A stretch of DNA of 64,000 nucleotides from an uncultured Acidobacteriota bacterium (GTDB lineage: Bacteria > Acidobacteriota > Vicinamibacteria > Vicinamibacterales > UBA2999), in contig CAWJEO010000014.1 of assembly GCA_963841895.1 (NCBI GenBank), positions 38,303-102,302 on the forward strand, written 5' to 3'. The notes under the pieces were generated by a model. It was not told the DNA's origin. It saw nothing but the letters and a program-made list of their open reading frames with translations, and ran no database searches. Shown here piece by piece: positions 16,010-47,261 of this stretch; the stretch's first letter is position 1, and the number at the start of each line of letters is the position of its first letter. Position numbers and translations under genes: made by a program.

Positions 16010-18684
16010 TCAGCGATCGAGCGCCGTTTGCCAGTTGAGAACGACCGAGATGGGATCAGGGACAGCCGCCGCAACCGGGAGCAACACCAGGAACCGTTGA
16101 CCGTCCGACATGACGTCCCAATTCGTCACGGTCAGCGGCAGCGCAAACAGTTGCCGTGGCAGTGCCGTTCGGACGACGTCGCCGTCAACGGACACGTCAG
16201 CGGCCATCATTGCTCCGTCCGGACTACGGTAGAAGAGCTCCTTGCCATCTCCTCTCCATCGCGGGCCGATGCCGCCGGCGTTCGACACCTGCCACTTGGC
16301 GCCGAGTGACGTCGTGCCGTCAGCCCGCACGAGAAACGGCCTGAGATAGACCTCTTGCTGACCGGATTCGTTCGACACGTAGGCGACGAAGCGTCCGTCA
16401 GGCGAGAACTTGCCGGATCCTTCATTGAAGGGCGTTTCGAGCAGCGTCACCTCCCCGCCGGTCGAATCGAGGCGAAGCGCCGCGATGTCCTGGCCGTTCT
16501 GGACGCTGCTGCGGACGAACAGCAGGAATCGTGCGTCGCGCGACCAGTCGGTCGGCGTCTCCGGAATCGGCGTGCGAAGCAGCGTCTTCTCCTCGGTCGC
16601 GCCGCTGGCGTCCTTCACGTACATGTCGCCGTTGCTGTCACGGTTCGAGCGAAATGCGATGCGTGCACCGTCCGGCGACCAGATGGGATTGGCATCCGGG
16701 GCCTGGTGAAACGTGAACCGCGTGAAGATGGCGCGAGAAAACTCGACCGACCACAAATCTGGTGCGGGTAGCGGCGCGATACCAAACATTGCGCGCGAGC
16801 CGTCCGGCGAAATCGCGAGCATCCCCGCTCCTGTGGCGTACGGACGGGCGTCACCAATCGTTCCGGTCGTCTGACCTTTCCGGTCTATCCATGTCAGCTG
16901 TTGGAGGTTGGTCGACGTGGCGGCGCCGCCGCGGTAGACGAGCAGGTCGGCACCTGCCGCTCCGAAATACGCAAACGACCCAACGCTGCCCACCCCCTCG
17001 GCAAGCCGCTGCGCCTCGCCCGACACCGTGAGGCGATCGAAATCAAACGGCTGGGCGACCAGCGTGGCATCTCGCATGTAGAGGAGGCGGCCGCCCGCGG
17101 GCGTCGCTCACCGCCGGCACGGGTCCGAGCGGCGCGTGAACGATGCGCGTACTCGACTGGTCAGCAGGCGGCACATCGATGGACCCGGCGTAGATCCCCT
17201 GCTGCGCCGCGTCGGCCGATTGCCGGACGTAGAGGAATCGTCGGCCATCGGGCAGGAACGTCGGAAACGAATGGAACCCGGATCGGGGATCGTAGGCGGT
17301 CACCGCAGCCGGGTCACCGCCGGCAGCGGAGACGCGCCAAATGGAGCCGGCGCCGCGCGTCCCATAGAGGATCGTGCCTTCCTGATTCCAGGTGCCGATG
17401 CCCACGAGGGCCGGCGATTGGCACACGGTCTGCGGCAGGCCGCCCGCCGGATCGATCTTCTTGAGCAGCCGCTCGTCGGCAAATGCGATCAGCCGGCTGT
17501 CCGGCGACCAGAACGGACTCCAGGCGCCCTCCGTTCCGGGTAGGACGCGGGCGTCGAGCGAATCGAGATCCCGTACCCAGAGACGCACGATGCCTTTGTT
17601 GTCTCGCGCAGTAAAAGCGAGACGCCGCCCGTTGGGCGCGACCGCTACGTAAATGTCGAACGTCTGGTCCGCCGGCGGCTGAAGCTGAAAGCGCGCCATC
17701 TCGCGCGGCAGCGCTGGCTCCGTGAAATGCACGAAGGCCAGAACGGCAGTCGTCAGCGCCAGCGCCGCAGCCGCGATCCACCCCATCCACCAACGCTGTC
17801 GGTGGACCACCGTTGCGGCCGGCGCAGTGTCGATCAGATCCCACGCATCGGCGATATCGTGCAGCCGCCTGCGGGGATCGCGCTCGAGGCATTTCTTCAG
17901 CAGCCGCTCGATCGACGCCGGCACGACGCTCCACTCGACCTCGGCCCTGAGCACCGAGGCGAGCGTGTCCGACACGTCATCTCCCTGGAACGCCCGACGG
18001 CCGCTCACCATTTCGTAGAGCACGCACCCGAACGCCCAGATATCGGCCCGCTTGTCGACGGGTTTACCCTTTGCCTGTTCGGGCGCCATGTAAGCGGCCG
18101 TGCCGAGGATCATCCCGTGCATGGTCATCGCCGGCGTCGTAATCGTGGGCGAGTTGAGCACCGCGTCGGCCTGCGAGCCGCTTCCGCCGGTCGAACCGGT
18201 GGACTCCAATGCCTTTGCGAGACCAAAGTCGAGCACCTTCACGGTGCCATCGTCGCGGACCTTGATGTTCGCGGGCTTGAGATCGCGGTGCACGATGCCC
18301 TGCTCGTGCGCGGCCGCGAGCGCATCGGCAATCTGGCGCGCGATCGCCAGCGCATCGTCCAGCGGAATCGGTCCGCGCTTGAGGCGCTTCGCAAGGTCCT
18401 CGCCCTCGACGAGCTCCATCACGAGCGCCCGCACTGGCACCCGAGTCCTCGACGCCGAGCAGCTGGGCGATGTGCGGATGGTTGAGCGCGGCAAGCGTCC
18501 GGGCCTCGCGGTCGAACCGCGCGAGGCGCTCGGCGTCGGCCACGAACTCCGCCGGCAGGATCTTCAGTGCGACGTCGCGCCCGAGCCGCATATCGCGCGC
18601 ACGATAGACCTCGCCCATGCCGCCGGCTCCGAGCGAGCCGGTCACTTCGAACGGGCCGATGCGCGAACCTGGCGAAAGCGTCAC
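16010..18684 (-). CDS. Hanks-type Ser/Thr protein kinase with transmembrane segment and C-terminal TolB/PD40-like beta-propeller; at least two frame breaks
   Basis: [31 protein letters not shown] motifs; TM WWMGWIAAAALALTTAVLAFV; PD40-like repeats (SPDGSRAMF, SPDGRFVAY). Confidence 0.75.
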
Positions 18685-30611: not shown

Positions 30612-31358
30612 ATGGCGCAGGGCGAGGAGTCACTCAAGCGGAAGCTGAGGGTCGTCACCTACAACATCCACCGCTGCCGCGGGCTCGACGGCCGGACGCG
30701 GCCCGAGCGCATCGCCGCCGTGCTGGCGTCGATCGACGCCGACATCATCGCGCTCCAGGAAGTCATCGGCGCCAGCCCGCTCAAGCCCGGACAAGCGGCC
30801 GAGATTGGCGCCGCGCTCGGCATGGGCTGGGTGATGGCGCCGACGCGGCATCTGCGCAACGCGCTCTTCGGCAACGTCGTCCTCAGCCACTTTCCGGTCA
30901 AGCACCATCAGCAGTACGACCTGAGCTGGAAGACCTGCGAGCCGCGCCTGGCGCAGCGCGTCGATCTGCACATCGGCGAGGAAGACGTCCTGCACTTCTA
31001 CAACGTCCACCTCGGCACCGCGCTCCTCGAGCGGCGCGAGCAGGCGAAGCGGCTCGCCAGCATCGTGCACGACCGCCGCGTGGCCGGCCCGAAGATCGTG
31101 CTGGGCGACTTCAACGAGTGGGCGCGCGGGCTGGCCAGCGACGTCCTGGCCGAGAAGCTCCACAGCATCGATCTCACGCAAGCACCTCAGCCGCCGGCGC
31201 ACCTACCCGGGTTCTTTCCGCTGGTCCACCTCGATCACATCTATTACGAGGGCGCCCGGGTCGAAGTCGACAGGGTCTGGCTGCCCAAGGACCGGCTCGC
31301 GCTGATGGCCTCGGATCACCTGCCGCTGGTTGCCGACCTCGCTCCGATTCGCGCCTGA
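30612..31358 (+). CDS. endonuclease/exonuclease/phosphatase (EEP) family protein
   Basis: [34 protein letters not shown] catalytic motifs; intact. Confidence 0.75.
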
Positions 31359-31435
31359 CCGAACCACGGCCGCCTCGCTTGACACGTAGATACCATAGTG
31401 ATATCACTTCGGTATCATCAAGGAGGATGTCGTCC

Positions 31436-32313
31436 ATGGTCCGCGAACGCGAATACAACGGCCTGCCCGGGCATTCCGATTCTGGTCGTCGCTGTTGTCG
31501 GTCGATCGCCGGGCTGATCTGGGCGCTGGCCATGACGATCCAGGGCCGGAACCCGGTCGCGCATCGTCGCTGCGTCACGGTCGCGCTCGCGTTCGTCGCC
31601 TTCCTGATGTTCGGGCTGTTCATGGTCAACCCGAATCAGGGCAAGGTGCTGCAGCTCTTCGGCGAGTATCGCGGGACGGCGAAGCTGCAGGGACTGCGCT
31701 GGGCGAATCCGCTCCTGATGAAGAAGCGCGTGTCGCTGCGCGTCCGCAACTTCGAGAGCTCGCGCCTCAAGGTCAACGACAACGAAGGCAACCCGATCGA
31801 GATCGCCGCGGTCGTCGTGTGGAAGGTCGTGGAAACCGCGGAGGCGATCTTCGAGGTGGACGACTACGAGAACTACGTGCACGTCCAGAGCGAATCAGCG
31901 CTGCGCAATCTGGCGACGAGCTATCCCTACGACGCGCACGACGAGCAGATGATCTCGCTGCGCGGCCACACGTCGGCGGTCGCCGATCATCTGCAAGCGC
32001 GAGATTCAGGAGCGGCTGGCGAAGGCCGGCGTGGAAGTCATCGAGGCGCGCATCAGCCACCTCGCCTACGCTCCGGAGATTGCCGCCGCGATGCTGCAGC
32101 GCCAGCAGGCCGGCGCGATCATCGCCGCCCGCCAGCGCATCGTCGAAGGCGCCGTGGGCATGGTCGAGATGGCGCTCGGCATGCTGTCGCAGAAGTCGAT
32201 CGTCGAGCTCGACGAAGAGCGCAAGGCGTCGATGGTCAGCAACCTGCTCGTGGTGCTCTGCGGCGAGCGCGGCGCGCAGCCGATCATCAACACGGGCACG
32301 ATTTATCAGTAGT
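31436..32313 (+). CDS. SPFH/band-7 domain membrane protein; one frame break near 31990-32030
   Basis: TM segment [23 protein letters not shown] core [22 protein letters not shown]..; C-terminal part in 32031-32312 frame. Confidence 0.7.
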
Positions 32314-32388
32314 GACAGGTATCCGAGTTCACGTTCAGCAGCGCGGTGACGCTCGCCGAAACTGTCGAACTGGAATCCTGTTGAATTC

Positions 32389-32566
32389 GATGACTCAGCG
32401 CAAGGCATTTCTCCTCCGCATCGACCCGAAGCTGCTCGAAGCGGTGCAGCGCTGGGCGGACGACGACCTGCGCAGCCTCAACGCGCAGATCGAATTCCTG
32501 CTGCGCCGCACGCTTCGGGAGGCGGGCCGGCTGAAGGAGCCTGGAGCGCCCAAGAAGCAGGAGTGA
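32389..32566 (+). CDS. small hypothetical protein (58 aa), possibly ribbon-helix-helix-like
   Basis: ATG at 32389, charged helical composition; weak. Confidence 0.3.
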
Positions 32567-32890
32567 CCGCGTCTCCGGCGCCCGTACGTGACGAAGGCCG
32601 GCGCTGAGCCGGCCTTCTGGTCTTGCTGATCCTGAGTTCCTGATCTAGCCTTCTTCTTCGAACTCGCCGTCGATCATCGGCCCGAGCCGCGTCGACGGAC
32701 GAAGCGCTTCGCGGTAGTCGTAGAGCGGCAGATCGTGACGTGCAGCGGATTGATGCATCCGGGCGCGTGCTGTCGACGACGACGGTGACAGGGCTGCCGT
32801 GCGTGGTGCCCTCACGAAACGCGAGACGGCAACCGCAGGCGAGACGCGCGTGTTCGAAAGCCTTTCAGCATGGGCTGAAAGGATCATACT

Positions 32891-33530
32891 ACAGCAGCGC
32901 CTTGATCTCCCTTTCGAAGACGGCCTTTGGCGCGATGCCCAGGTGCTTCTTGCAGACCTTGCCGTCGCGGCTGATGATGAACGACGCCGGGATGCCCCAG
33001 ATCGGTCCATACGCGTCCTGCACATCTTCGCGCCCTTCGCCGAGCAGAATCGGATAGTTCATCTTGTACTCGGTCGGCGAACGCCTCGCGCCTTCGGCGC
33101 TTCGTCATCGACCGAGTAGCCGACGACGACGAGGTCGTTCTTGTACTTGCTCTGCAGTTCGACGAAGCCCGGAATCTCCGCCTTGCACGGACCGCACCAC
33201 GTCGCCCAGAAATTGAGCAGGATGACCTTGCCCTTGTACGACGTCAGCGACACGTCCTTGCCGTCGAGATCCTTGATGGTGAAGTCGAGCTTCGCGGGCT
33301 TCGCGTTGGCCATGCACGCGCCGCTCGCTGTTCCTGCTCGCTCGTCGAGCACGCCGGCGCCGCGTCGGGCGCATGCGACGCGACCGGCGCCATCATCCCG
33401 ACCGAGCCGGCTCGGCTTCGAGATCGTGCTGCCACACGAACGGCACGCTGATCGCGAGCAGCGCGATGAAGGTGGCGATCATGGCCGCCAGGCGCAGTTT
33501 CGTGCTTGGCTGGTCCATAGGGGTATTGTG
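32891..33530 (-). CDS. TlpA/ResA-family membrane-anchored thiol:disulfide oxidoreductase; at least three frame breaks
   Basis: N-terminal anchor MDQPSTKLRLAAMIATFIALLAISV; WATWCGPC active site; C-terminal YKMNYPILLGEG..GIPASFIISRDGKVCKKHLG in other frame. Confidence 0.7.
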
Positions 33531-33588
33531 CCTCATCCTCGTTCCCGTAGGGAGAGCTACGGCGGGGACGGCCGCGGTAGGTCGGTGT

Positions 33589-33635
33589 ACAGGTCGTGAA
33601 TCGTGAACGGCGGTCCGTCGCGATCACGACCTGAC
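33589..33635. repeat. hairpin AGGTCGTGAATCGTGAACGG...TCACGACCT sharing a 21-mer with the 25494-25594 palindrome
   Basis: read directly; located between anti-sigma gene 3' end and tlpA start. Confidence 0.55.
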
Positions 33636-34430
33636 CATCACGGCGCCATCCGTACGCGTCGGCGCGCCGATGCCGTCGCCCGCTCGAAATAGGCGGCGAT
33701 GCGTATCGAGCTCGGCAGCCGAGAACGCCGCGGGCGACGAGCGCATAGGCATTGCCGTCGGCGGACCAGATGCGCTCGACGTGACCGAGCACGCGCAGCT
33801 GCTCGGCGCGGACGCGCTTCGCCGGGCGTCACGTAGAGCGACATGTCGTGGCCGCCGCTGCGATACGCAGGTGCGCGTGATCGCCGAGCCAGAACGGGCA
33901 GCGCCGCGCGCCGACCAGCGTGAGATCCGATGTCGGCGCTGGAGTCGGGCACCGGCACCCTCCAGCCGTAGCGTTCGCGCGATACTCCTGCTGACATCGC
34001 CGCGGCGTCGGCGCCGTCGAGCGTGCCCAACGCGAGCACGAAACAGCGCACGTGATCGATCGCGAGCTGCGCCGCGAACAGGACGTCGAGCGCGGCGACA
34101 CGAACTCGAGCGCGGTGACGAGCGCGACCAGGAGCACCGCCGCGGCGCCGAAGCGGTGAGGCGGCCGCCCCACCCGAGCGACGGTACCGGCGTCGGCGCG
34201 GAGGCGGCGCCGCGATGCGGGTCGCGCAGTCCGGGCGGCGCCGGCGTCCGGTCAGCTCGCGCCGCCCGCGCGCGCAGGACCGTTCGCAGCCGTCCGCTGC
34301 GCCTGCGACCGGCGCGCGCAGGCGTCGCACGATGGCGAGGTGGGCCTCGACCTGGGCGGCGGCGCTCGGCGAGCGCCTCGCCGTCCACGTACGGTGGCAG
34401 CAGCGACTCGATCTGGCGACACTCGGTCAT
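33624..34430 (-). CDS. anti-sigma factor (zinc-finger type), frame-disrupted, 3' end uncertain
   Basis: N-terminal MTECRQIESLLPPYVDGEA anti-sigma zinc-finger motif directly after ECF sigma gene; remainder is GC-biased/garbled. Confidence 0.45.
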   Translation of the reverse strand: MTECRQIESLLPPYVDGEALAERRRPGRGPPRHRATPARAGRRRSGRLRTVLRARAARADRTPAPPGLRDPHRGAASAPTPVPSLGWGGRLTASAPRRCSWSRSSPRSSSCRRARRPVRGAARDRSRALFRARVGHARRRRRRGDVSRSIARTLRLEGAGARLQRRHRISRWSARGAARSGSAITRTCVSQRRPRHVALRDARRSASAPSSCACSVTSSASGPPTAMPMRSSPAAFSAAELDTHRRLFRAGDGIGAPTRTDGAVMVRS

Positions 34431-34459
34431 TCGATGCGTCTCGGCGGGTCACCTGGCAG

Positions 34460-35082
34460 TTACGTCAGCTTGCGACGCTGTCCGATCATCTCGAACGCGC
34501 TGCACGCTCGTCGTCGGGTCCCTGCACGCAGCAGGTCGTGCAGCTGCCGTCGGCCTCGCGAAATGCGCGACATCACCGTGCCGATCGGAATCGCCAGGGC
34601 CTCGGCGATCTCCTGGTACGAGAGACTCTTCGACGTCGCGCAGCCAGACCGCGTCGCGGAACTCTTCGGGCAGCGCATCCAGCGCCGCCTGCAGTTCCGC
34701 GCCGAAGCTGGCCCGCAGCAGCAGGGCTTCCGGGCTCTGCGGGCTGACGCCGCTGTCCAGCGCGGCGCGCTCATCGGCGTCGCTCGACCGCGTCGGAGTC
34801 GAACTCCACCCGGGAGCGAGCCTGATCGCGGCGCCGGTTGCGCCAGGTGTTATGCAGGATCGTGAACAGCCAGGCCTTCAGGTTGGTCCCGGCGGCAAAG
34901 CGGTCGCGCGCCCGAAAGGCCTTCAAGTACGTGTCCTGCACCAGGTCCTGGGCCCGGTCGGCATCACGCGTAAGCCTCAGGGCGGTCCCATACAAACTGT
35001 CGAGCAGCGCCAGCGCCTCCGACGTGAACGCGTCGCGTTCGTGCTCCGAAGCGGGATCCGGGCGGCGTCGGCCAAAAAACAT
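34460..35082 (-). CDS. ECF (sigma-70 family) RNA polymerase sigma factor; about two frame breaks
   Basis: region 2 DLVQDTYLKAFRARDRF..AWLFTILHNTWRNRRR and region 4 LSYQEIAEALAIPIGTVMSRISRGRRQL in two frames. Confidence 0.7.
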
Positions 35083-35454
35083 CGCGGTGCGGCGCCGTCC
35101 TTCTTCACAAACCCCGGCGGGCGCCAATATTCCAGGATCGGTTGCCGAGGTGCCAGGGCCGGTGGAGAGCTGAGGTCCGCCTGCCCGCCCCCGGCAGTCC
35201 GTCCTCGCCGTCCAGAGTATAGGACAAAGCGGGGTCTGAAATTTGCTGGCCGATGTCGGACAGGGCCCTCGACTACCCCGGCTTCGACCTGCACCTGCAC
35301 CGCTGCATGGCCGAGACTGGGTCTCCGTGCGCCTGGTGGCGGCGGGGGCGTCAGCGCAGCGGTTCGCCGGCGACGTTGGTGCGGAGGGGTGCCGGACCCG
35401 AAGTAAGATGCCAGCCAGGCCCTCGACTGAGCTCAGGGCAAGGGGAGTAGGTCC

Positions 35455-38400
35455 ATGAACAATTGCACGCCGGGCCGGTCGGTTCTGCCGCGGCCGCTGA
35501 TCGTCCTCGTCGCGGCGCTCGCCGTGCTGGGCGGCGCGCGAGAGGCGACGGCGCAGACCGAGTTCGTGCCGTACTTCGGCAAGAACCAGATCCGCTACGA
35601 CAACTTCAAGTGGCAGATCTACACGACCGACCACTTCGAGATCTACTACTACCCGGAGATCGAGCCGCACCTCGAGAAGATCGCCGGCTACGCCGAGAGC
35701 GCGTATCAGCACGTGAGCTCCGAGCTGAAACACGACCTCGCCTTCAAGGTTCCGCTGATCCTCTTCTCGACGAGCAGCGAGTTCTGGCAGCAGAACGTCA
35801 TCCCGGGCGCGGCCCAGGAAGGCGTCGGCGCGTTCGCCGAGCCGAGCCGGTATCGCATCGTCATGCCGATGGACGAGCCGTCCGACCTGCTCTACCGGCT
35901 CACCGTCCACGAGCTCACCCACCAGTTCCAGTACGACATCATCCCGACCTCGCTGGTCCGCCAGAACATGCCGCTGTGGGTGTTCGAGGGCATGTCGGAC
36001 TACATGACCGGCATCTGGCGCTCGATCGACCTGATGTACGTGCGCGACGCCGCAGTCGCCGACATCATCCCGAAGATGTCGGAGCTCCAGGGCTACGGCA
36101 GCTTCACCAACGCCCGCGTCGATCTACAACCTCGGGCACGCCGCCTTCGAGTTCATCGAAGCGCGCTGGGGCAAGGAGGGCGTCCGCCAGTTCGTGTTCT
36201 CGCTGCGCAAGAGCGTCATCGGCGGCGGCGACAACGCGTTCAAGGAAGCGTTCGACATGGACGCCGACGAATGGGATCAGCAGTTCGATCGCTACCTCAA
36301 GGAGCGCTTCAAGCCGTTCCGCGACAAGGAACGGCCGGCCGACTACGGCCGCGACCTCGCGCCGAACCCGGAGAAGACCCGCTACAGCAACGTGCTGTCG
36401 GTCGAGCCGTCGCCCTCGGGCGATCTGATCGCGGCGATGAGCGGCAACAGCCGCGACCGCGAGCTCGACATCGTCCTGCTCTCGGCCAAGGACGGCTAGG
36501 TCGTTCGCAACCTGACCAGCGGCTTCGATCAGAACCTCGGCTTCGAATCGATTCCGGTTCCCGGCATGCGCTGGTCAACCGTGCCGTGGATGTCGTGGTC
36601 GCCGCAGGGCGATCGGCTCGCCTACTTCGTCCGCACCGAAAAGGATCGCTCGCTCCTCCTCCAGAACGTCATCTCGCGCAAGGTCGAAGTGCGGATCCCG
36701 ATGATCACGGTCGACTCGCCGGAGTCGCCGGACATCTCGCCTGACGGCAAGCTGGTGGCGTTCTCGGCCGCGCAGGGCATCATCAACGACATCTACACCG
36801 TCAATCTCGACACCAAGGAAATCGTCAACCTCACGAAGGACGAGTTCGCCGACTACGCGCCGACCTGGGCGCCGGACGGCAAGTCGATCGTCTATCTCAA
36901 GCGGGTGAGCGGCAACGAGAAGCTGTTCCGGCTCGATCTCGCGTCGGGCAAGTCGACGCAGCTCACCTTCGGCACGCACGACGAAGGCGGCGCGCAGTTC
37001 CTCGACGCCAACACGCTGGTCTTCACGTCGACGGCGACCGATCCGGCGAAGCCGATCGATCCCGACGTCGCGAAGAACGGCGCCATTCACAACGTCTGGA
37101 CGCTCGACCTGCGGAACGGCGAGCTGCAGCAGTTCACCGACGCGCTCGCCGGCAACTTCAACCCGGTCGTCCTCCACGGCGGACGCGGCGACCGCCGCGG
37201 GTCGGCGTTCGTCACCTACTACAAGGGCGAGTACGGCCTGCACACGCTCGACAAGCAAGGAACCGGTCGCCAAGGCCGCCACCGCCGACTTCGGCGCGCC
37301 CGGGCCCGGTCATCGACTTCCAGGCGCCGATGACCCACACCGCTCGTCGCCGAGAACAAGAAGAAGAAGGGCAAGTTCGAGAAGATGTTCCTCGACGGCC
37401 GCCCGCCGGTGGCCCTCGGCGTGACGAGCGGCGGCGACTTCTTCGGCGGCACGCAGATCTCGTTCACCGACGTGCTCGGCGATCAGCAGTTCAACCTGTT
37501 CGCCGCGTCGGTCTCGCAGTACCGCACGATGTCGCTCAGCTATCTGAACCTCGAGCGGCGGCATGCAGTGGGCGCTGCAGGGCTACTCGCAGACGCAGTT
37601 CTTCTACGGCCAGCTCGAAGGCCTCTTCTACGACCCGGCGTTCAGCGGCCTGATCGATCGCGATCTCGCCGTGGCGACGCGCACGATGCCGCGGCGGCAC
37701 GGCGTTCGCCATCTACCCGTTCAACCGCTACCGCCGCGTCGAGATGTACGGCGGCGTGGTCGACTATCGCGAGCAGTTCGACGACCCGGGCCTCGAGGCC
37801 TACTCGCAGCAGTATCAGCAGGAGAAGTTCGGGCAGGTGCTCTTCAACAACGGCACGATGGTGCCGCTCGGCGTCACGTTCATCCAGGAGACGACGGTCT
37901 TCCGCGAGTTCGGACCGCTCGCCGGCAGCACGATGCGCGTCAACTACGAGAACGCGCCGAAGATCGGCGGCACGCTCTCGCGCCAGACCATCGACGTCGA
38001 CGCGCGCAAGTACTTCCGGCTCGGCGGCAGCGGCCTGTTCGCGGTGCGCGCGCGAAGGCTTCAAGAGCTGGGGCACCAACCCGGGCTTCCTCTACTTCGG
38101 CGGCAACTCGGAGATGCGCGGCTACGACTACCTGTCGTTCGTCGGACAGGACGCGTTCTACCTGAACGCCGAGCTCCGCTTCCCGCTCATCGACGCGATG
38201 GCGACGCCGATCGGCATTCTCGGCGGCATCCGCGGCACCTTGTTCGCCAACATCGGCGGCGCGCAACTTCGACGACGAGTCGTTCAAGGTCTGGACGAAC
38301 AACACGACGGTCGAGACGCCGATCATCGGCTACCGTCAGGTAGGCCAGGAGCTCGTGCCGATCTACGGCGCCGCCGCGTGTCGATCGACGGCTTCCGGCT

Positions 38401-38589
38401 GCGTCGACGCCCGCGCCTCATACGGCGTCAGCCTCCAGACCTTCGCGCTCGGCTTCCCGGTCCACTTCGACTGGTCGTGGAAGACGCTCTTCAACAAGCG
38501 ACTGGGAAGACGTCGTCTTCGCGCAGGCCGGCGGCAGCTCGGAGTTCCGCAAGGCGAAGTTCACGATGTGGATCGGCTACGACTTTTAG
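35455..38589 (+). CDS. large outer-membrane multidomain protein: N-terminal HExxH peptidase-like domain + TolB/PD40 beta-propeller + C-terminal Omp85/D15-like beta-barrel; at least eight frame breaks
   Basis: signal LIVLVAALAVLGGAREATAQ; TVHELTHQF; PD40 repeats (SPDGKLVAFSA, APTWAPDGKSIVY); C-terminal barrel GYDYLSFVGQDAFYLNAELRFPL..KFTMWIGYDF-stop (terminal aromatic). Confidence 0.55.
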
Positions 38590-38620
38590 GCGCTCGACGC
38601 TTCGCTGACTCGCGCCTCAC

Positions 38621-38692
38621 GAAGGGCACGAAGAAGAACGAAGACACGAAGAAGACGGATCAGGGATCAGCGACTCGAAAGGTCGCTGGTCT
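38621..38692. terminator. tandem-word tract (CGAAGAAGAACGAAGACACGAAGAAGAC, GGATCAGGGATCAG) plus 7-bp stem-loop CAGCGAC-TCGAAAG-GTCGCTG downstream of the large OMP gene
   Basis: read directly. Confidence 0.5.
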
Positions 38693-38773
38693 CTGATTCA
38701 CGTACGGCGCTAATCGGCGGGTGACTCAGCACTCCAAGCGTGGCATGACTCTGCAACAGAAACCGCGCAGGTC

Positions 38774-39198
38774 GTGCTGCCGAACGACTCCAATCCGCTC
38801 GGCTACATCCTCGGCGGCACGGTGATGCACATGATCGACATCACCGGCGCGATCGCCTGCCATCGCCATACCAACGCGCTCGCGTTGACGGCTGGCGTCG
38901 ACAGCCTCGAGTTCCTGCACCCGATCAAGGTCGGCGACATCATCATCCTGAAGTCGCGCGTGACCTGCACGTTCCAGACGTCGCTGGAAGTGGAAGTCGA
39001 AGTCTATTCAGAGGGATCGACGACGGGAGAGCGCCGGCTGACGAGTCACGCCTATCTGACTTCGTGTCGCTCGACGCAGCACGGCCAGCCGAAGCGGTCC
39101 CTCCGCTGGCGATCGGAGAGGACCGGAGGACGAAGAGCGATGCCGTGAGGCGCAAGCAGCGCCGGGCCGAGCGGCCTCGCCGCAAGACGCGCACGTAA
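38774..39198 (+). CDS. hotdog-fold acyl-CoA thioesterase; one frame break near 39060
   Basis: VLPNDSNPLGYILGGTVMHMID...EVEVEVYSE; C-terminal in +1 frame ending TAA 39196-39198; GTG start. Confidence 0.65.
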
Positions 39199-39211
39199 CC
39201 CGGCACCGCAC

Positions 39212-39240
39212 GGGAACCTGGAACGTAGGAACCTGGAACG
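39212..39240. repeat. GGAAC-word element (GGGAACCTGGAACGTAGGAACCTGGAACG) between convergent genes
   Basis: read directly. Confidence 0.55.
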
Positions 39241-39244
39241 GCGC

Positions 39245-40790
39245 TAGTTCCCCGCCTTCACCATCCGCATCTCGCTGCGCTCGCAGATCCACCGACACGC
39301 GGTACGGGCTCAGGAACTTGTGTCCGACGATGCCGCCGACCTCGAAGCCGAGGAGCACGCTCGGCGCACGAAGGTTGAGCACGACAACCGAGAAGTTGTT
39401 GTAGGCGATGTCGTTGAACTTCAGGTTGATGCCCGGCAGCAGGAACGCCTCGCGATCCCAGCCCGACGTGCCGTAGACCTTCAGCGCAATCTTGCGCGTC
39501 GGCGTCGCATTGAGCGCCTGCGCGGTGGCCGTGCTGATCGAGATGACCTCGCCGCCGGTGTCGACGACGAAGTAGGCCGGGTGGTTGCCGTTGATGAGGC
39601 CGCGCACCATCGACAGGCGGTGATGCCGCATCGCCCAGGCGGAACTCGCTGCGTCTCTTCGGGCAGCGAGCTTGCCGATGGTGAGCTTGTTCGCGCGTAG
39701 TCGATGGTCATCGACAAGCCGAGCGCCATCGGCGAGAAGCTCTCGGTTTCCTTCTTCGGCAGGCCGCGCAGGGGCGGCGCCTTGATCAGCACCGGCACGT
39801 TGTCGAGCCTGAGCGTGCCGATCTCGAACGAGTCGAGCCGCCCGAGCTGCAGTCCGCGCAGGCCCACTTCGCCGACGCCGGCGCTGAGCGTGTAGGTGAT
39901 CGGGCGAACGTTGGCGTTCGAGGCCGTCGAGCGCGAGATGGTCGTCTGCTCGGAGCCCGGTGTCGAGGACGAAGTCCTGCAGCCGGCCGCCGTTGACCTT
40001 GACCTGGACGATCACCTTGTCGTCCACGAGGCGGAAGTCCACGGTGTGCAGGCGCGTCGGCGCTCACGTCGTCGATGGAGATCGGCTCGCGCTCGCCGAA
40101 CGACTTGCAGGAAGCGCACCTGCGACCGCGACCACGCCGCCTTGTCGCTGCGATCCTTGTTCGGCAGCAGGTTGATGTAGTTCGTGTAGGCCGCGGCCGC
40201 CTGTTCGTAGCGGTGCATGCCGCTCGTAGATCGAGCCGACGGTGTGATGCAGCTCGCCGTCGCGCGGCGAGAGCTTGAGCGCGGCCTGCGCTTCGTTCGA
40301 GCGCGTCGTCGAGCTTCGACTGCGAGGCGAGCGCCCGCGCCAGCCCGTGACGGGCGCGCGACGATTCCGGCGCGAGGGCCAGCGCGTCGCGCCAGCTGCC
40401 TTCGGCCTCGTCGAAGAGTCCGGCCGACCAGATGCGCGTCGGCGTAGGCCGACAGCGCCTCGGGGTTCCGCGGCGCCAGGTCTTCAGCGAAGCGGCTTCG
40501 CGCTGCGCTTCCTGGAACTGTCCGATCCGCAGGGCGGTGCGAACGAAGCCGATGCGCGCGCGCACGCGACATGCCGCTGTCGTTCGGCGTCGTCGCCTTG
40601 CGATAGGCCTCGAGCGCCTCGGCGTACCGCGTCTCGTCGAAGAGCAGTTCGGCGAGCTGGAGCTGCACTTGCGCGTCGTCGACGTCAGACGCCGCTCGTG
40701 GGGCTGCGAGCGCGGCAGCTGCGACGAAGAGCCGCCGCGGTGCACAGGCGCCGGAAGGTAAGCATAGGGACCTCTCTCTACCACCGAAGG
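39245..40790 (-). CDS. secreted TPR-repeat protein with two tandem retropepsin-like (clan AA) aspartic protease domains; frame breaks at N-terminus and elsewhere
   Basis: two D-T-G active-site contexts (RLQDFVLDTGL; AYFVVDTGGEVISIS); TPR-like N-half; signal-like LCTAAALFVAAAALAAPRAAS. Confidence 0.55.
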
Positions 40791-40946
40791 CAGGGGCGCA
40801 GCCTGCCGGAGCAAGAAGGCAAATGTGCCGGCAGCCGCCCCGCAAGGTAGCTGCCGTGTCCCGGATTCTACCCCCACAGTTCACCCAGGTGGACGATCGA
40901 TATGCTCGCGACCCCCGAGGACCCGGTGCAGAGAGCCGCGAGGTCG

Positions 40947-41207
<261 letters not shown>

Positions 41208-41255
41208 TAAAATCGCTCCAGAAAGCCCCGCGCGAGCCGGGCAAGAACACTGCCA

Positions 41256-41309
41256 CTAGCGAAGCGGAGCCGACGGCTCTTATTCCGGACGGTTCCGCAG
41301 CTTCGCTAG
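41256..41309. terminator. hairpin CTAGCGAAGC ... GCTTCGCTAG at IclR 3' end
   Basis: 10-bp perfect stem read directly, overlaps IclR stop. Confidence 0.45.
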
Positions 41310-42038
41310 TCAACTTGCGGTTTCCAGGGTCGCTGGCGGGACATGCCCCAGCCGGATCGAAATGCGGCGCGCCATGTCCCACGCGCCCTTTGTGGTGCTC
41401 CGTCACAATCGGGCCGATCGTCGGCGCCGTGGCCGAAGACGCCGACCCGCGCCACCTCGCGACCGGTGTAGTCGTGGACCGGCGCGCAGGTGCAGAACAG
41501 CCGCTGCATGGCGTCGGGCTCGACCGGCGGCGGCCCGAGCCGCACCATCGTCGCTTCCGCGTTCGCGACATGCTCGCGGGTGACCAGCCGCAGGCAGCTC
41601 AGTCGCCGCGTCGCCTGTCGCGGCGAGAAATACAGCGCGCAGTGTCCCGGCATGTCCTTGCCGTAGACCGTGTGCATCGCGACCTCGTCGGGGCCCGCGC
41701 TCCAGAGGTACGTCACCTCGCCCGCCGACAGGAATGGCGATGAACCCGCGATGCGGCGGTGCGCAGCACGTAACCGCGCATGACCGGATAGGCATGGAGG
41801 CGAACTTCCGACCGACCGAGCGAGCGGAAGCTCAGATCGAGCATCTTGAGCGTCAGCGCCGTAGCGCTGCGTCTCGTCGTCCTGACGGACGTAGCCGCGG
41901 CGCTTCAGCAGCGCCAGCAGCCGGTGCATGGTCGGCGGCGGCTGGCGCAGCGTTCGCGCGAGCTCCGACAACGCTCATCCCGCGCGGACTGCCGCTCAGG
42001 ACCTCGCAGACCTCGAGCGCCTTGTCGACCGAGGTCAT
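41306..42038 (-). CDS. IclR-family transcriptional regulator; at least three frame breaks
   Basis: HTH block SELARTLRQPPPTMHRLLALLKRRGYVRQDDETQRYG; N-terminal MTSVDKALEVCEVLSGSPRGMSV in other frame. Confidence 0.65.
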
Positions 42039-42236
42039 GGCTCGAGCTTCCGACGAGTCGGTTTGAGCATACTTTCGTTCCACAGATATGGAATATAGTT
42101 TCGAGATTCTGACTGTATCGACCGGTCGCCGGCCCTGTCAAGGCAACCAGCCGGGTTGACTCAGCTCGAGACGAACCGTAGGATCGGCGCTCACCCCCGT
42201 CGGTCGAACAACGCTCCGCTTTCGTAACGGACGATC

Positions 42237-44395
<2,159 letters not shown>

Positions 44396-44401
<6 letters not shown>

Positions 44402-44493
44402 TCTGGCGATGTCGTGATCTGGCGATCTGATGATCTAAAGCCCTGATCCGATCTCCTGGCTCCTCAGATCACCAGATCACCACATCACCACAT
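44396..44493. repeat. palindromic tandem-word element (GGTGATCTG family): GATCTGGCGATGTCGTGATCTGGCGATCTGATGATC ... CAGATCACCAGATCACCACATCACCACATC
   Basis: read directly between convergent kinase and DUF4097 gene. Confidence 0.7.
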
Positions 44494-44503
44494 CGCAAGA
44501 TTC

Positions 44504-45246
44504 TTATTTGCTTCTAATCTCGATCTTCCCTGTGACGACGTCGATCGAGATCACGGGTTCGCCCTTGCCGAGCGTCGCTTCGCTCCAGCGCGGGCCCCAT
44601 GACTCCTTACGGTTCAGCGGAATATCCGAGGCGATCGTGCCGTTGAGCGCGAGCGCCAGGATGCGCGCGTCGGTCGGGCGCGCCGCGAGCGTCAAGAGCA
44701 CATCGCCGTTGAACGCGCGCAAGCGCAGGAGCCCGCCGGCCGTCAGCCGCGTGCGATCGCCGTGACGTTGCCGATACCGGTCTCGAGGCGGACCGTCCCG
44801 CCGACATCGACCGCGTCGATCGGCCCTCGGCGGACGTCGGCCGTCACCGAACCATTCAACGCCTGACAGCGTCAGCTTCCCCTCGACGATCCGGATCGCG
44901 TTGAGGACGCGCAGCCTGCGGGACTCTCAGGGTGACGTCGGTGCGCAGGTTCGCGTCGGTGCCGCCCTCAGGCTGGACGCCTCGAATGCGAATCTGCTTC
45001 TCTTCCTCGACAATGTCGATCGGGATCCGCGCCAGCGCCTCGGCGGTCGGCGCCTGGCGCACGACCTCGATGACGGCATCGCTGCGATCGGAGCCTTCGA
45101 TGCGGACGTGGCCGATCGTGATCTCGAGCACTGAGGACGCGGTCGGCGGGAAGCGGGACGGTACGCGACTGCGTGTCGGTCGCCGCGCGCTGCGGCGGCG
45201 CCAGTGCGAGCAACGCCAGCGCACCAAGCACGAGGTGGAGCAGCAC
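44504..45246 (-). CDS. DUF4097-family beta-strand-repeat protein (putative adhesin/LiaG-like), secreted; frame-disrupted
   Basis: signal MLLHLVLGALALLALAPPQRA; repeated V.I.G.V.I blocks (LEITIGHVRIEGSDRSDAVIEVV; LLTLAARPTDARILALALNGTIASD). Confidence 0.55.
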
Positions 45247-45337
45247 GGTCAGGAAGTCCGAGCATATACTTTCTGGACACAGGCGTCATGGCTCGAGTCC
45301 TCGTGTCCGGTGTGATCCTCAACGCGGGATCGTCCCC

Positions 45338-46565
45338 GCGTTGCGGCGTCGTGCGCGCTGGCGCGGGCTGCTGCTGATACTGTCGCTCGTGGCCAGTCCG
45401 GCTCTCGCCGTCGCGCAGATGCCGACCGAGCCAGTCAGCCTGGGCGACGGCCGCGTCGTCCTTGGCGCGGACGTGACCGTCACCTTCGCCAGCGACGATC
45501 CCGGCTTCTTCAACTACACCGACTACGAATACAGCGCGCTGCGCAACTTCCGCGTCGGCCTCACTGCCGAGTTCCGCGCCAGCTGCGCGGCTGCAGTTCC
45601 TCGGCGAGCTGCGCATGGATCACGGCGATCGGCTGCAGCCGTTCGCGTTGTTTGCCCGGATCCGGCCGTGGCCGGCGCGCCGCTTCGACATCCAGGTCGG
45701 ACGCATCCCGCCCACCTTCGGCGCCTTCGGCCGCAGCGCCTACGGGACGGCGAACATGCTGATCGGGACGCCGCTCGCGTATCAGTACCTCACCTCGCTC
45801 CGGCCTGACGCGCTGCCGGCGCACGACCGACGATCTCATCCGGATGCGCGGGCGCGGGTGGCTGGCGATCTACCCGATTGGCAATCAGACGCCAGGACCG
45901 CGGGTTGCCGTTCGTGAACAGCGTGCGCTGGGACACCGGCGTGCAGGTGCACGGCGTCAACGGCATGATCGAATGGACCGGCGCGGTCACGACCGGATCG
46001 CTGTCGAATCCGCGTGTCGGCGACGACAACGATGGCCGCCAGGTCGCCGGCCGGGTCGTGCTCCGGCCCGCGCCGGCAATTGCGCTGGGCGCGTCGGCGG
46101 CCCGCGGCGCGTATCTGAGCAAGAGTCTCGAATCGGCGCTCGGCGAAGGCCGCAGCGTCGAGGACGGCGTGCAGCAGGCCTTCGGCGTTGACGCGGAGTA
46201 TGCCATCGGCCGCTTTCTCGCGCGCGGCGGAAGTGATCTGGTCGCGTGGACGCTGCCGGTCGGATTGACGCTCGGCCGAGAATGAACGGCTCGATGCGAC
46301 GTCGGTGCTGGTCGAAGGCCGCTATCGCATCCTGCCCGGACTGCAGCTCGCGGCGCGCGTCGAGCGGCTGGGGTTCGCCGAGTTGCCGACGGCGGCTGGC
46401 CCGATGACATGGGATGCGCCGGTGCGCCGGCTCGAGATCGGCGATCGGCTACTCCATCATCCGCAACGTCACGCTCAAGGCGTCCTGGCAGCGCAACCTG
46501 CGCGACGGCGGCCGCGTGCGCCGAGACTCGCTGTGGGCGCGGCCAGGTCGTGTACTGGTTCTGAG
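45338..46565 (+). CDS. putative outer-membrane beta-barrel protein (C-terminal ..VVYWF-stop), frame-disrupted
   Basis: signal RRRARWRGLLLILSLVASPALAVAQ (TTG start); alternating beta-strand pattern; terminal aromatic; pieces in four frames. Confidence 0.5.
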
Positions 46566-46599
46566 TGTGCAGGCTGCTGGCTGCAGGGCCTGGCGCGGT

Positions 46600-47261
46600 A
46601 TGGTCGCGGTCGCTCTGTTGACCGCGTCGACCACCGGGTCGGTCTGCGGCCGACGCTCGGCGCAGACGCTCGGCGCGATTCGCGGCCGTCTCGACATTCG
46701 CCGCATGGCCCGGCCGACCGAGCGGCGGCCTGAAGTGGCGGAGCCCGGCAGCGCCGGGTCGCGCGACTGCCACGACCTGCGCCGCGGCGTCGTCTATCTC
46801 GAGACCGCGCCGCGCGGCGCGTTCGAGGAGCGCGAAGCCGGGCGCGCCGTCATGGACCAGCGCAACGAGACGTTCGTGCCGCACGTCCTGGCGGTCACGG
46901 TCGGCACCGTCGTCGACTTCCCCAACAGCGACAAGACGTTTCACAACGTCTTCTCGCTCTCCAAGGCCGAAGCGCTTCGACCTCGGCCGCTACGCGGTCG
47001 GGCGGTCGAAGTCGGTGCGATTCGATCGGCCGGGCGTCGTGCGCGTGTTCTGCGACATCCACTCGCACATGAACGCGTTCATCCTGGTCTTCAGCCATCC
47101 GTTCTTCGACGTCACGGACCCGGACGGCCGCTTCCGTCTCGACAACGTTCCGCCCGGCACCTACACCGTCGTCGGCTGGTACGAGGGCGAGGCGCGCACG
47201 TCGCGGGCCGTGACCGTGCACGGCGGGCGGCGTCGTCGATCTCGAGCTCGTGGTTCCAGTA
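46600..47261 (+). CDS. cupredoxin-like domain protein (type-1-copper-like C-x2-H-x2-M: FCDIHSHM) with C-terminal CarboxypepD_reg-like segment; start uncertain
   Basis: TFHNVFS...VRVFCDIHSHMNAF ligand spacing like amicyanin; DPDGRFRLDNVPPGTYTVVGWYEG; stop TAA overlaps ATG of kinase (TAATG). Confidence 0.55.

What the first reader, a model, noticed from the sequence alone, without database searches (positions are those of the whole stretch)
35455..38589. About 1040-aa outer-membrane protein combining an HExxH peptidase-like domain, a PD40 beta-propeller and an Omp85/D15-type C-terminal barrel
The domain order (signal, TVHELTHQF zincin-like module, TolB-like repeats, then a BamA-like barrel ending ..WIGYDF) is unusual. 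Omp85-family barrels normally follow POTRA domains, not a protease plus propeller. It could be a surface-exposed protease/scavenger anchored by its own barrel. The gene is also the most frame-broken in the window (at least eight shifts), so the fusion needs confirmation.
Basis: partly seen in the sequence, partly recalled or inferred. Interest (0 to 1): 0.55.

Follow-up and report, generated by a model that had tools for sequence, protein, structure and literature searches.

The report
Peptidase–propeller Omp85 outer-membrane protein gene
This is one real gene for a 1039-residue outer-membrane protein that joins a zinc peptidase and a TolB-like propeller to a BamA-type barrel; the architecture belongs to an Omp85 subfamily catalogued in 2014 but never studied experimentally, and the frame breaks are sequencing noise.

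Summary
Window 35455-38589 (+) encodes one 1039-codon gene. It is interrupted by 12-15 single-base indels and one in-frame TAG. The same indel density occurs in every neighbouring gene, so the breaks are assembly noise, not decay or a false fusion.

Thousands of relatives carry the same protein as a single uninterrupted ORF of about 1020-1060 aa. At least 402 of them are species-representative genomes, almost all Vicinamibacterales.

Domain calls are supported:
- Peptidase: the HExxH...E...Y gluzincin set is invariant across relatives down to 27% identity.

Pfam's Omp85 and Peptidase_MA_2 models miss this clade. They do pass threshold on full-length relatives.

The architecture is not new. Heinz & Lithgow (2014) listed a "WD40-like Omp85" subfamily with TolB-like and aminopeptidase-like N-terminal parts. 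No function has been tested.

Barrel topology places the peptidase and propeller in the periplasm, where BamA carries POTRA domains. That orientation is inferred, not shown.

The parts
35441..35447 (+). Shine-Dalgarno-like AGGGGAG, 7 nt before the start codon
   Evidence: Read directly from the sequence.
35455..38589 (+). Whole coding sequence: 1039 codons plus stop after removing 12-15 single-base indels. WD40-like Omp85 family protein.
   Evidence: Frameshift-aware alignment to P0001 and P0006. Full-length single-ORF homologues.
35455..35553 (+). Sec-type signal peptide, residues 1-33 (MNNCTPGRSVLPRPLIVLVAALAVLGGAREATA|QTE). Not a lipoprotein signal.
   Evidence: Read from the sequence. The N-terminus has pLDDT below 50 and is helical. 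No signal-peptide predictor was available.
35572..36355 (+). Gluzincin (MA-clan, Peptidase_MA_2 / M1-like) domain, residues ~40-300. Contains the frameshift at 36121.
   Evidence: Peptidase_MA_2 scores 17.3 bits here, below the 32.4 cut-off. Relatives pass it: P0151, P0224, P0270 at 32.6-57.8 bits. The N-domain profile hits M1 aminopeptidase 3CIA at E 3.8e-4. The beta-sheet plus two-helix zincin layout appears in the model.
35908..35922 (+). HELTH (H152-E153-x-x-H156): two zinc ligands and the catalytic base
   Evidence: Invariant in 49 close relatives and 42 distant relatives.
35986..35988 (+). E178, in the motif PLWVFEG: predicted third zinc ligand, 22 residues after H156
   Evidence: Invariant. 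Aligns with the WLNEG glutamate of M1 aminopeptidase 3CIA.
36125..36127 (+). Y224: predicted transition-state-stabilising tyrosine
   Evidence: Invariant in A3. Aligns with the PYVKG tyrosine of 3CIA.
36383..37277 (+). Six-bladed TolB-like PD40 beta-propeller, residues ~310-606
36497..36499 (+). In-frame TAG at codon 348, a variable site within the propeller
   Evidence: Relatives use CAG, TCG, GCG, GAG or ACG here. TAG is one substitution from CAG, TCG or GAG.
37278..37408 (+). Linker, residues 607-649, including the Lys-rich ENKKKKGKFEK (37355-37387). No POTRA-sized unit.
   Evidence: Model secondary structure and pLDDT. Alignment view.
37409..38586 (+). 16-stranded Omp85-type beta-barrel, residues 650-1039
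38099..38125 (+). GGNSEMRGY (residues 879-887): Omp85 loop-6 (V/I)RG(F/Y) motif
   Evidence: G879 and R885 are invariant. RG(Y/F) is present in most of the 42 distant relatives.
38243..38263 (+). FANIGGA (residues 927-933) on strand 13: the position of the Omp85 (F/G)xDxG motif, with Asn in place of Asp
   Evidence: The family consensus is FxDxG. The Vicinamibacterales clade has N or other residues.
38560..38586 (+). C-terminal strand 16, FTMWIGYDF: beta-signal-like end with terminal Phe
   Evidence: FWIGxxF with a terminal aromatic is conserved across the family.

Best explanation
The region holds a single functional gene for a member of the 'WD40-like Omp85' subfamily. Its frame breaks are sequencing or assembly errors.

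Proposed working:
1. A Sec signal peptide takes the precursor to the periplasm.
2. The C-terminal 390 residues end in an aromatic beta-signal. They are inserted into the outer membrane as a 16-stranded Omp85 barrel.
3. Strand 1 of that barrel starts at the periplasmic face. The N-terminal 600 residues therefore hang into the periplasm on a 43-residue linker, in the place where BamA and TamA carry POTRA domains.
4. That module is a zinc metallopeptidase. The predicted ligands are H152, H156 and E178, the base is E153, and Y224 acts as the transition-state tyrosine.
5. A six-bladed TolB-like propeller is packed against the peptidase. As in other propeller-peptidases, it probably restricts access to unfolded chains or peptides, or docks a partner.

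Net function proposed: an outer-membrane-tethered, propeller-gated periplasmic peptidase acting in envelope protein or peptide turnover.

Shown here: one gene; the three domains; conservation of the catalytic set and the barrel motifs; absence of POTRA.
Inferred: metal binding and activity, periplasmic orientation, gating, and physiological substrate.
For: One gene, noise-broken:
- 1039 codons align without amino-acid gaps to P0001 at 92% identity.
- Indel density is the same in 13 neighbouring genes.
- Intact 1016-1061-aa homologues are abundant.
- Relatives occur in at least 402 species genomes.
- Synteny with intact loci is conserved.

Peptidase:
- H152, E153, H156, E178 and Y224 are invariant in 42 relatives at 27-58% identity.
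- Peptidase_MA_2 passes gathering in relatives.
- The N-domain profile hits M1 aminopeptidase 3CIA, aligning HExxH, the EG glutamate and the tyrosine.

Propeller:

Barrel:
- 16 strands, with the L6 RGY motif between strands 11 and 12.
- BamA, TamA and Sam50 are the structural matches to the barrel; the overall top hits are TolB and other six-bladed propellers.
- Pfam Omp85, and sub-cut-off but significant NCBIfam BamA matches (E down to 1e-11), in relatives.

Model quality: pLDDT 84.7, pTM 0.84.

High conservation, 76% mean column identity across an order, argues for a selected function.
Against: - No coordinates of the model could be inspected, so the side of the barrel on which the N-terminal module sits is inferred from strand parity, not observed.
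- No biochemical data exist for any family member.
- The window protein itself does not reach Pfam thresholds for Peptidase_MA_2 or Omp85. Its barrel profile finds nothing in PDB sequences.
- The strand-13 Asp of the Omp85 FxDxG motif is Asn in this clade.
- No conserved partner gene outside Vicinamibacterales points to a pathway.
- The TAG at 36497 could be a genuine nonsense mutation.
Confidence: 0.6

Rival explanations
1. Surface-exposed protease or scavenger. The N-terminal peptidase-propeller would be exported through or alongside its own Omp85 barrel, as in type Vd (PlpD) or two-partner secretion. It would then digest extracellular proteins for nutrition.
For: PlpD shows that an Omp85-type barrel can deliver an N-terminal enzyme to the surface (Heinz & Lithgow text). 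The 43-residue linker is long enough in principle to span a barrel. Vicinamibacteria are soil heterotrophs (own knowledge).
Against: There is no POTRA domain between passenger and barrel, unlike PlpD and TpsB. The L6 RGY lid motif is intact. Residues 621-649 of the linker are confidently modelled with a short strand rather than a lumen helix. A folded six-bladed propeller plus zincin is unlike known type V passengers (own knowledge).
Confidence: 0.15
2. Primarily an outer-membrane protein insertase or translocase. The barrel would be the working part, acting BamA/TamA-like through a lateral gate. The propeller would replace POTRA and BamB as a substrate or partner scaffold. This is the 'BamA-BamB fusion' idea of Heinz & Lithgow. 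The peptidase would be accessory, in a BepA-like quality-control role.
For: The barrel keeps the Omp85 hallmarks: L6 RGY, the conserved strand-12 NxExRFP motif, and short strands 1 and 16 at the seam (650-654 and 1030-1035). The suggestion is in the literature. BepA is a zinc protease that works at BAM (own knowledge).
Against: The propeller is six-bladed and TolB-like, not the eight-bladed BamB type. The catalytic residues are the most conserved positions in the whole protein, which argues that proteolysis is central. The strand-13 Asp is lost in this clade. No Bam or Tam partner genes are nearby.
Confidence: 0.12
3. Pseudogene. The gene is genuinely inactivated in this organism by the TAG at codon 348, the frameshifts, or both.
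For: There is an in-frame TAG and 12-15 indels.
Against: Thirteen of the 14 neighbouring genes tested, including an ECF sigma factor and a thioredoxin-like gene, carry indels at a similar density; the short ferredoxin gene has none. A genome broken like this throughout would not be viable. Between breaks the sequence is 92% identical to intact homologues with no amino-acid gaps. TAG is one miscall from the common codons at that site.
Confidence: 0.05
4. Two or three adjacent genes misread as a fusion.
For: None beyond the frame breaks.
Against: All listed homologues and 83 loci show one continuous ORF or match spanning residues ~1-1039. Distant relatives at 27-46% identity keep the same three-part order.
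Confidence: 0.01

Closest known systems
'WD40-like Omp85' subfamily (Heinz & Lithgow 2014, Front Microbiol 5:370, PMC4104836)
   Same: It has the same three-part order. Their Table S3 lists best barrel hits BamA 4K3B / TamA 4C00, best WD40 hits TolB 2W8B / 2IVZ, and a 'best aminopeptidase hit' column (1Z5H, 4KXD, 4FGM, 3QNF). As here, about 40 of their 62 members lacked a PF01103 hit. Function is untested.
   Different: Their members came from other phyla, named from memory (for example Caldithrix, Rhodothermus, myxobacteria). The window protein belongs to a Vicinamibacterales clade that was not sampled then. I could not fetch their sequences to place this clade in their network. This clade has Asn for the strand-13 Asp.
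BamA / TamA (canonical Omp85 insertases)
   Different: No POTRA domains. Sequence scores are far below equivalog cut-offs. The N-terminal module is an enzyme plus a propeller.
TolB (Tol-Pal system)
   Different: TIGR02800 scores 67.6 bits against a cut-off of 343. Only the propeller aligns. There is no tol-pal neighbourhood.
M1 aminopeptidases / Peptidase_MA_2 (clan MA gluzincins), e.g. cold-active aminopeptidase 3CIA and tricorn-interacting factor F3
   Same: HExxH, a glutamate about 20 residues downstream in an xEG helix, and a downstream catalytic tyrosine.
   Different: There is no GxMEN exopeptidase motif. The preceding strand reads GAFAEP with invariant E129. The domain is much smaller, about 260 aa. 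Whether it is an exo- or endopeptidase is unknown.
BepA (M48 zinc protease with TPR that acts at the BAM complex). Functional analogue only.
   Same: A periplasmic HExxH protease positioned at an Omp85 barrel. This comparison rests on my own knowledge.
   Different: BepA belongs to a different peptidase family, has a TPR instead of a propeller, and is a separate soluble protein rather than fused to a barrel. No homology is claimed.
PlpD / type Vd secretion
   Same: An enzyme domain lies N-terminal to an Omp85-type barrel.
   Different: PlpD has a patatin passenger and a POTRA domain. Neither is present here.

Membership tests
Omp85 superfamily | C-terminal 16-stranded beta-barrel of the BamA/TamA fold | tested here: met
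Omp85 superfamily | Sequence match to Omp85 barrel models (Pfam PF01103) | tested here: inconclusive
   The direct test is not met: no PF01103 hit for the window protein or 10 clade members. Only weak NCBIfam Omp85_fam hits appear, E 1e-4 to 9e-4. By transitive homology it is met. Full-length relatives P0123, P0164, P0224 and P0270 have phmmer E 1e-277 to 6.5e-80 to P0001. They score 35-53 bits against a cut-off of 24. BamA TIGR03303 reaches E down to 1e-11.
Omp85 superfamily | Loop-6 (V/I)RG(F/Y) motif between strands 11 and 12 | tested here: met
   GGNSEMRGY at 879-887. G879 and R885 are invariant in 42 relatives.
Omp85 superfamily | Strand-13 (F/G)xDxG motif | tested here: inconclusive
   The family consensus is FxDxG. 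The window protein and its clade read FANIG / FANLG, with Asp replaced by Asn.
BamA / TamA orthologues | One or more POTRA domains N-terminal to the barrel | tested here: not met
   No POTRA Pfam hit. The 43-residue linker has no beta-alpha-alpha-beta-beta unit. Equivalog scores are far below cut-off.
WD40-like Omp85 subfamily (Heinz & Lithgow 2014) | TolB-like PD40/WD40 propeller directly N-terminal to the Omp85 barrel | tested here: met
WD40-like Omp85 subfamily (Heinz & Lithgow 2014) | Aminopeptidase-like (zincin) region N-terminal to the propeller (their Table S3) | tested here: met
.
WD40-like Omp85 subfamily (Heinz & Lithgow 2014) | Clusters with their listed UniProt members in a sequence-similarity network | not tested
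   Their sequences could not be fetched with these tools. The link rests on shared architecture and on relatives with PF01103 plus PF07676.
Clan MA gluzincin metallopeptidases (Peptidase_MA_2 / M1-like) | HExxH plus a glutamate ligand about 18-25 residues downstream | tested here: met
   H152, E153, H156 and E178 (22 residues after H156) are invariant. They align to 3CIA.
Clan MA gluzincin metallopeptidases (Peptidase_MA_2 / M1-like) | Pfam PF13485 above gathering | tested here: inconclusive
   The window protein scores 17.3 bits against 32.4. Relatives P0151, P0224 and P0270 score 32.6-57.8 bits.
Clan MA gluzincin metallopeptidases (Peptidase_MA_2 / M1-like) | Zinc binding and peptidase activity | not testable with these tools
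   Needs biochemistry.
M1 aminopeptidase family proper | GxMEN exopeptidase motif upstream of HExxH, and the multi-domain M1 body | tested here: not met
   The upstream strand reads GAFAEP. The 3CIA alignment covers only the catalytic helices. The domain is about 260 aa.
TolB orthologues | Full-length match to TolB (N-terminal alpha/beta domain plus propeller) above the equivalog cut-off | tested here: not met
   TIGR02800 scores 67.6 bits against 343, over the propeller part only.
Type Vd (PlpD-like) autotransporters | Patatin passenger plus POTRA plus Omp85-type barrel | tested here: not met
   No patatin or POTRA hits.

The most novel reading that the evidence does not exclude
The barrel is not a passive anchor. 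This could be a self-contained outer-membrane quality-control or processing machine. An Omp85 lateral gate or lumen would capture unfolded polypeptides, such as stalled outer-membrane proteins or imported peptides. It would then hand them to a propeller-gated zinc peptidase fused in place of the POTRA arm. That would be a proteolytic counterpart of BamA, combining BAM-like and BepA-like roles in one chain. It would be conserved as a core envelope protein of Vicinamibacteria and scattered across other phyla.
Probability: 0.15. Interest if true: 0.65.

Novelty: new member of a known kind. Interest (0 to 1): 0.3.

Why it matters
The practical result is a corrected annotation. The region holds one gene. 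The frame breaks are artefacts affecting the whole window, so any gene call here needs polishing first.

Biologically, the WD40-like Omp85 proteins are one of the Omp85 subfamilies with no experimental data. This work adds four points:
- The zinc-peptidase catalytic set is the most conserved feature across the family.
- The propeller is six-bladed and TolB-like.
- No POTRA domain is present.
- The protein is a highly conserved, near-universal single-copy (occasionally two-copy) gene in Vicinamibacterales.

Together these make a testable case that some Omp85 barrels tether a protease at the inner face of the outer membrane. The finding does not reveal a new kind of system.

Tried and rejected
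1. Direct Pfam scan of the stitched protein and of the barrel alone. No Omp85 hit was found, and Peptidase_MA_2 was sub-threshold.
2. Barrel profile against PDB sequences. It returned only a chance ribosomal hit.
3. First AF2 run, with a narrow alignment of 70-90% identical sequences. It was poor (pLDDT 58.6). It was replaced by a run with 42 diverse relatives.
4. The search for related loci with the diverse alignment.
5. The afdb50 fold library was unavailable.
6. Search for an ECF-type promoter ([GT]GAAC-N14-19-CGT[CTA]) upstream in 79 loci. There was no consistent site, only a TGAACC...CGTC motif near -109 in five or six loci. The divergent ECF sigma gene is therefore not shown to regulate this gene.
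7. Gene neighbourhood as a functional clue. It is conserved within Vicinamibacterales. It is unrelated in a Poribacteria relative, in an unassigned metagenome relative, and in a paralogous copy. It was rejected as evidence of a pathway.
8. Literature searches for any functional study of this subfamily. None was found.
9. tRNA and Rfam scans of the window. Nothing was found.
Full report
**Observation**

No single ORF spans 35455-38589; the region appears as a chain of fragments in all three forward frames. A draft stitched by eye found more than 3300 homologues. The best 120 were listed. Nearly all are single proteins of 1016-1061 aa covering 97-100% of the query at 71-91% identity.

I aligned the closest one to the DNA with a frameshift-aware dynamic programme. 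This homologue is P0001 (1039 aa). The result was 1039 matched codons, no amino-acid insertions or deletions, and 92% identity. The interruptions are 14 one-base insertions, one one-base deletion and one in-frame TAG at 36497. The start codon is ATG at 35455, preceded by AGGGGAG. The stop is at 38587-38589.

**Are the breaks real?**

I took the genes called on a syntenic intact contig (L001) and aligned each to the window in the same way. Thirteen neighbouring genes between 30.6 and 47.3 kb carry single-base indels. Most have 2.3-8.3 per kb, and insertions outnumber deletions. The target has 3.8 per kb on the same reference. Only the 258-nt ferredoxin gene is clean.

A genome broken like this throughout would not be viable, so this is read or assembly noise, not decay of this gene. 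The TAG lies at a variable codon where relatives use CAG, TCG, GCG, GAG or ACG. It is one substitution from three of these.

**Is the fusion real?**

Yes, on three lines of evidence:
- Intact loci encode one ORF.
- A scan of one genome per species found at least 402 genomes with a continuous match over residues ~1-1039. Almost all are labelled Vicinamibacterales, Vicinamibacteria or Acidobacteriota.
- A search of 1.84 billion representatives found 1329 clusters at E<=1e-30. These include many 930-1140-aa proteins at 27-46% identity that align from about residue 15 to about 1009.

**Domains**

_Direct annotation is weak in this clade._
- Only PD40 passes its threshold. Peptidase_MA_2 scores 17.3 bits against a cut-off of 32.4. 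No Omp85 hit appears.
- The barrel alone finds nothing in Pfam or in PDB sequences.
- NCBIfam gives only sub-threshold TolB, flagellinolysin-HExxH and Omp85_fam matches.
- The precomputed Pfam labels on homologues are Tricorn_N, Tricorn_2nd and PD40, which are all propeller models.

_The distant full-length relatives settle the domain calls._
- P0123, P0164, P0224 and P0270 pass Pfam Omp85 at 35-53 bits (cut-off 24), with matches running to the C-terminus.
- P0151, P0224 and P0270 pass Peptidase_MA_2.
- They also match the BamA barrel model at E down to 1e-11.

_Invariant positions._ Across 42 relatives at 27-58% identity, the invariant columns include:
- H152, E153, H156, E178 and Y224 in the N-domain;
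- G879 and R885 of GGxxxxRG(Y/F);
- E903, R905 and P907 in the barrel.

A profile of the N-domain hits the M1 cold-active aminopeptidase 3CIA at E 3.8e-4. The alignment pairs HExxH, the EG glutamate and the catalytic tyrosine.

**Structure**

An AF2 run on a narrow alignment was poor. A run on the diverse alignment gave pLDDT 84.7 and pTM 0.84. The model shows:
- A zincin-like N-domain at 40-300. The active-site helix spans 143-162 and the glutamate helix 174-185.
- Six four-stranded blades at 310-606.
- A 43-residue linker with no POTRA-like unit.
- Sixteen barrel strands at 650-1035. There is a helix in L4, a long L6 between strands 11 and 12 carrying the RGY motif, a long L7, and a helix in L8.

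**What is known**

- Heinz & Lithgow (2014) divided the Omp85/TpsB superfamily into ten subfamilies. One is 'WD40-Omp85'.
- Their Table S2 lists 62 members. About 40 have only PD40 Pfam hits.
- Their Table S3 gives BamA or TamA as best barrel hit and TolB as best WD40 hit. It also has a 'best aminopeptidase hit' column listing 1Z5H, 4KXD, 4FGM and 3QNF.
- I found no experimental study of any member.
- Sources name these proteins 'hypothetical protein', 'WD40 repeat protein' or 'Tol biopolymer transport system component'. One fragment of a Poribacteria relative is named 'BamA/TamA family'.

**Mechanism**

The following is shown:
- a signal-peptide-like N-terminus;
- an intact and invariant gluzincin catalytic set;
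- a TolB-type propeller;
- an Omp85 barrel with the L6 motif and an aromatic C-terminus;
- no POTRA domain.

The rest is inferred. In Omp85 barrels L6 is an extracellular loop. Since it joins strands 11 and 12, odd strands run outward and strand 1 begins in the periplasm. The N-terminal 600 residues then occupy the position of the POTRA arm.

I therefore favour an outer-membrane-tethered periplasmic peptidase. Its propeller would gate access or dock a partner, as in other propeller-peptidases. My rough confidences for each step are:

| Claim | Confidence |
|---|---|
| Architecture | 0.95 |
| Breaks are artefacts | 0.9 |
| Catalytic competence | 0.75 |
| Periplasmic orientation | 0.65 |
| A specific quality-control role | 0.3 |

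The surface-scavenger reading needs a type V-like export for which the usual POTRA is missing. The insertase reading ('BamA-BamB fusion') does not explain why the catalytic residues are the best-conserved positions. It also conflicts with the propeller being six-bladed, not BamB-like.

**Context**

In Vicinamibacterales the gene is flanked as follows, out of 83 loci:
- Upstream and divergent: a thioredoxin-like AhpC/TSA gene (70 loci), an ECF sigma factor (55) and a zf-HC2 anti-sigma factor (52).
- Downstream: a TPR plus retropepsin-like gene (65) and a ferredoxin gene (68).

No consistent ECF-type promoter lies upstream. Relatives outside the order, and second copies within it, sit in unrelated neighbourhoods. 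I therefore treat this synteny as shared ancestry, not functional linkage.

**Verdict**

The novelty claim is weakened: this is a new, divergent member of a catalogued but uncharacterised Omp85 subfamily. Interest is modest.

Noticed in passing
window 30612-47258: Thirteen of the 14 neighbouring genes compared with an intact syntenic contig, and the target gene itself, carry single-base indels. Most have 2-8 per kb, and insertions outnumber deletions about 3:1. Most are not in long homopolymers. The whole window looks like unpolished error-prone assembly.
   Followed up: yes
window 32892-35082 (-) and 38720-42038: Conserved neighbourhood in Vicinamibacterales. Upstream and divergent lie AhpC/TSA thioredoxin-like, zf-HC2 anti-sigma and ECF sigma genes. 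Downstream lie a 4HBT thioesterase, a TPR plus double Asp_protease_2 (retropepsin-like) protein, a ferredoxin and an IclR regulator. These are present in 52-70 of 83 loci, but not outside the order.
   Followed up: partly
L001 2476-7150 versus window ~32310-32890: The closest NCBI contig has a MacB-type efflux cluster (membrane-fusion protein, ABC ATPase, two MacB/FtsX permeases) between the Band_7 and AhpC/TSA genes. The window and L002 lack it, which suggests an insertion or deletion between close relatives.
   Followed up: no
window 16010-18494 (-): A Ser/Thr protein kinase fused to a TolB-like PD40 propeller, split by a frameshift near 17043-17077. Its propeller gave the only other tblastn hit of the target in the window (29% identity over 78 aa).
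   Followed up: partly
L018/L023 (JAUXWO01) and L009/L055 (JBFMCA01): Some genomes carry two copies of the family, each about 70% identical to the reference homologue P0001. The second copy sits in an unrelated housekeeping neighbourhood (VTT/DUF547, MFS/TLC transporter, PEP-utilising enzyme).
   Followed up: partly
L031, L033, L038, L042, L063, about 108-114 nt upstream of the start codon: A shared TGAACC-N18-CGTC element resembles an ECF-type promoter. It is found only in this subset of loci, not in the window.
   Followed up: partly
window 38243-38263 (residues 927-933): The Vicinamibacterales clade replaces the Asp of the Omp85 strand-13 FxDxG motif with Asn (FANIG). More distant family members keep FxDxG. 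The same clade escapes Pfam's Omp85 model.
   Followed up: partly
window 37355-37387 (residues 632-642): A Lys-rich stretch, ENKKKKGKFEK, lies in the linker just before barrel strand 1. It is conserved in the clade and basic in many distant relatives. It is modelled with high confidence. It may contact the inner leaflet or the barrel rim.
   Followed up: no
L013, L014, L019, L024, L032, L048, L053: Contigs carrying this gene at about 68-72% identity are titled Bifidobacteriaceae, Acidimicrobiia or Cyanobacteriota. These are probably mislabelled metagenome bins, since the gene and its neighbours are otherwise Vicinamibacterales-specific.
   Followed up: no
window 35824-35841 (residues 124-129): The strand before the HExxH helix reads GAFAEP, with E129 nearly invariant. 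It sits where M1 aminopeptidases have the GxMEN exopeptidase motif. This hints at recognition of a free N-terminus, but no alignment supports it.
   Followed up: no
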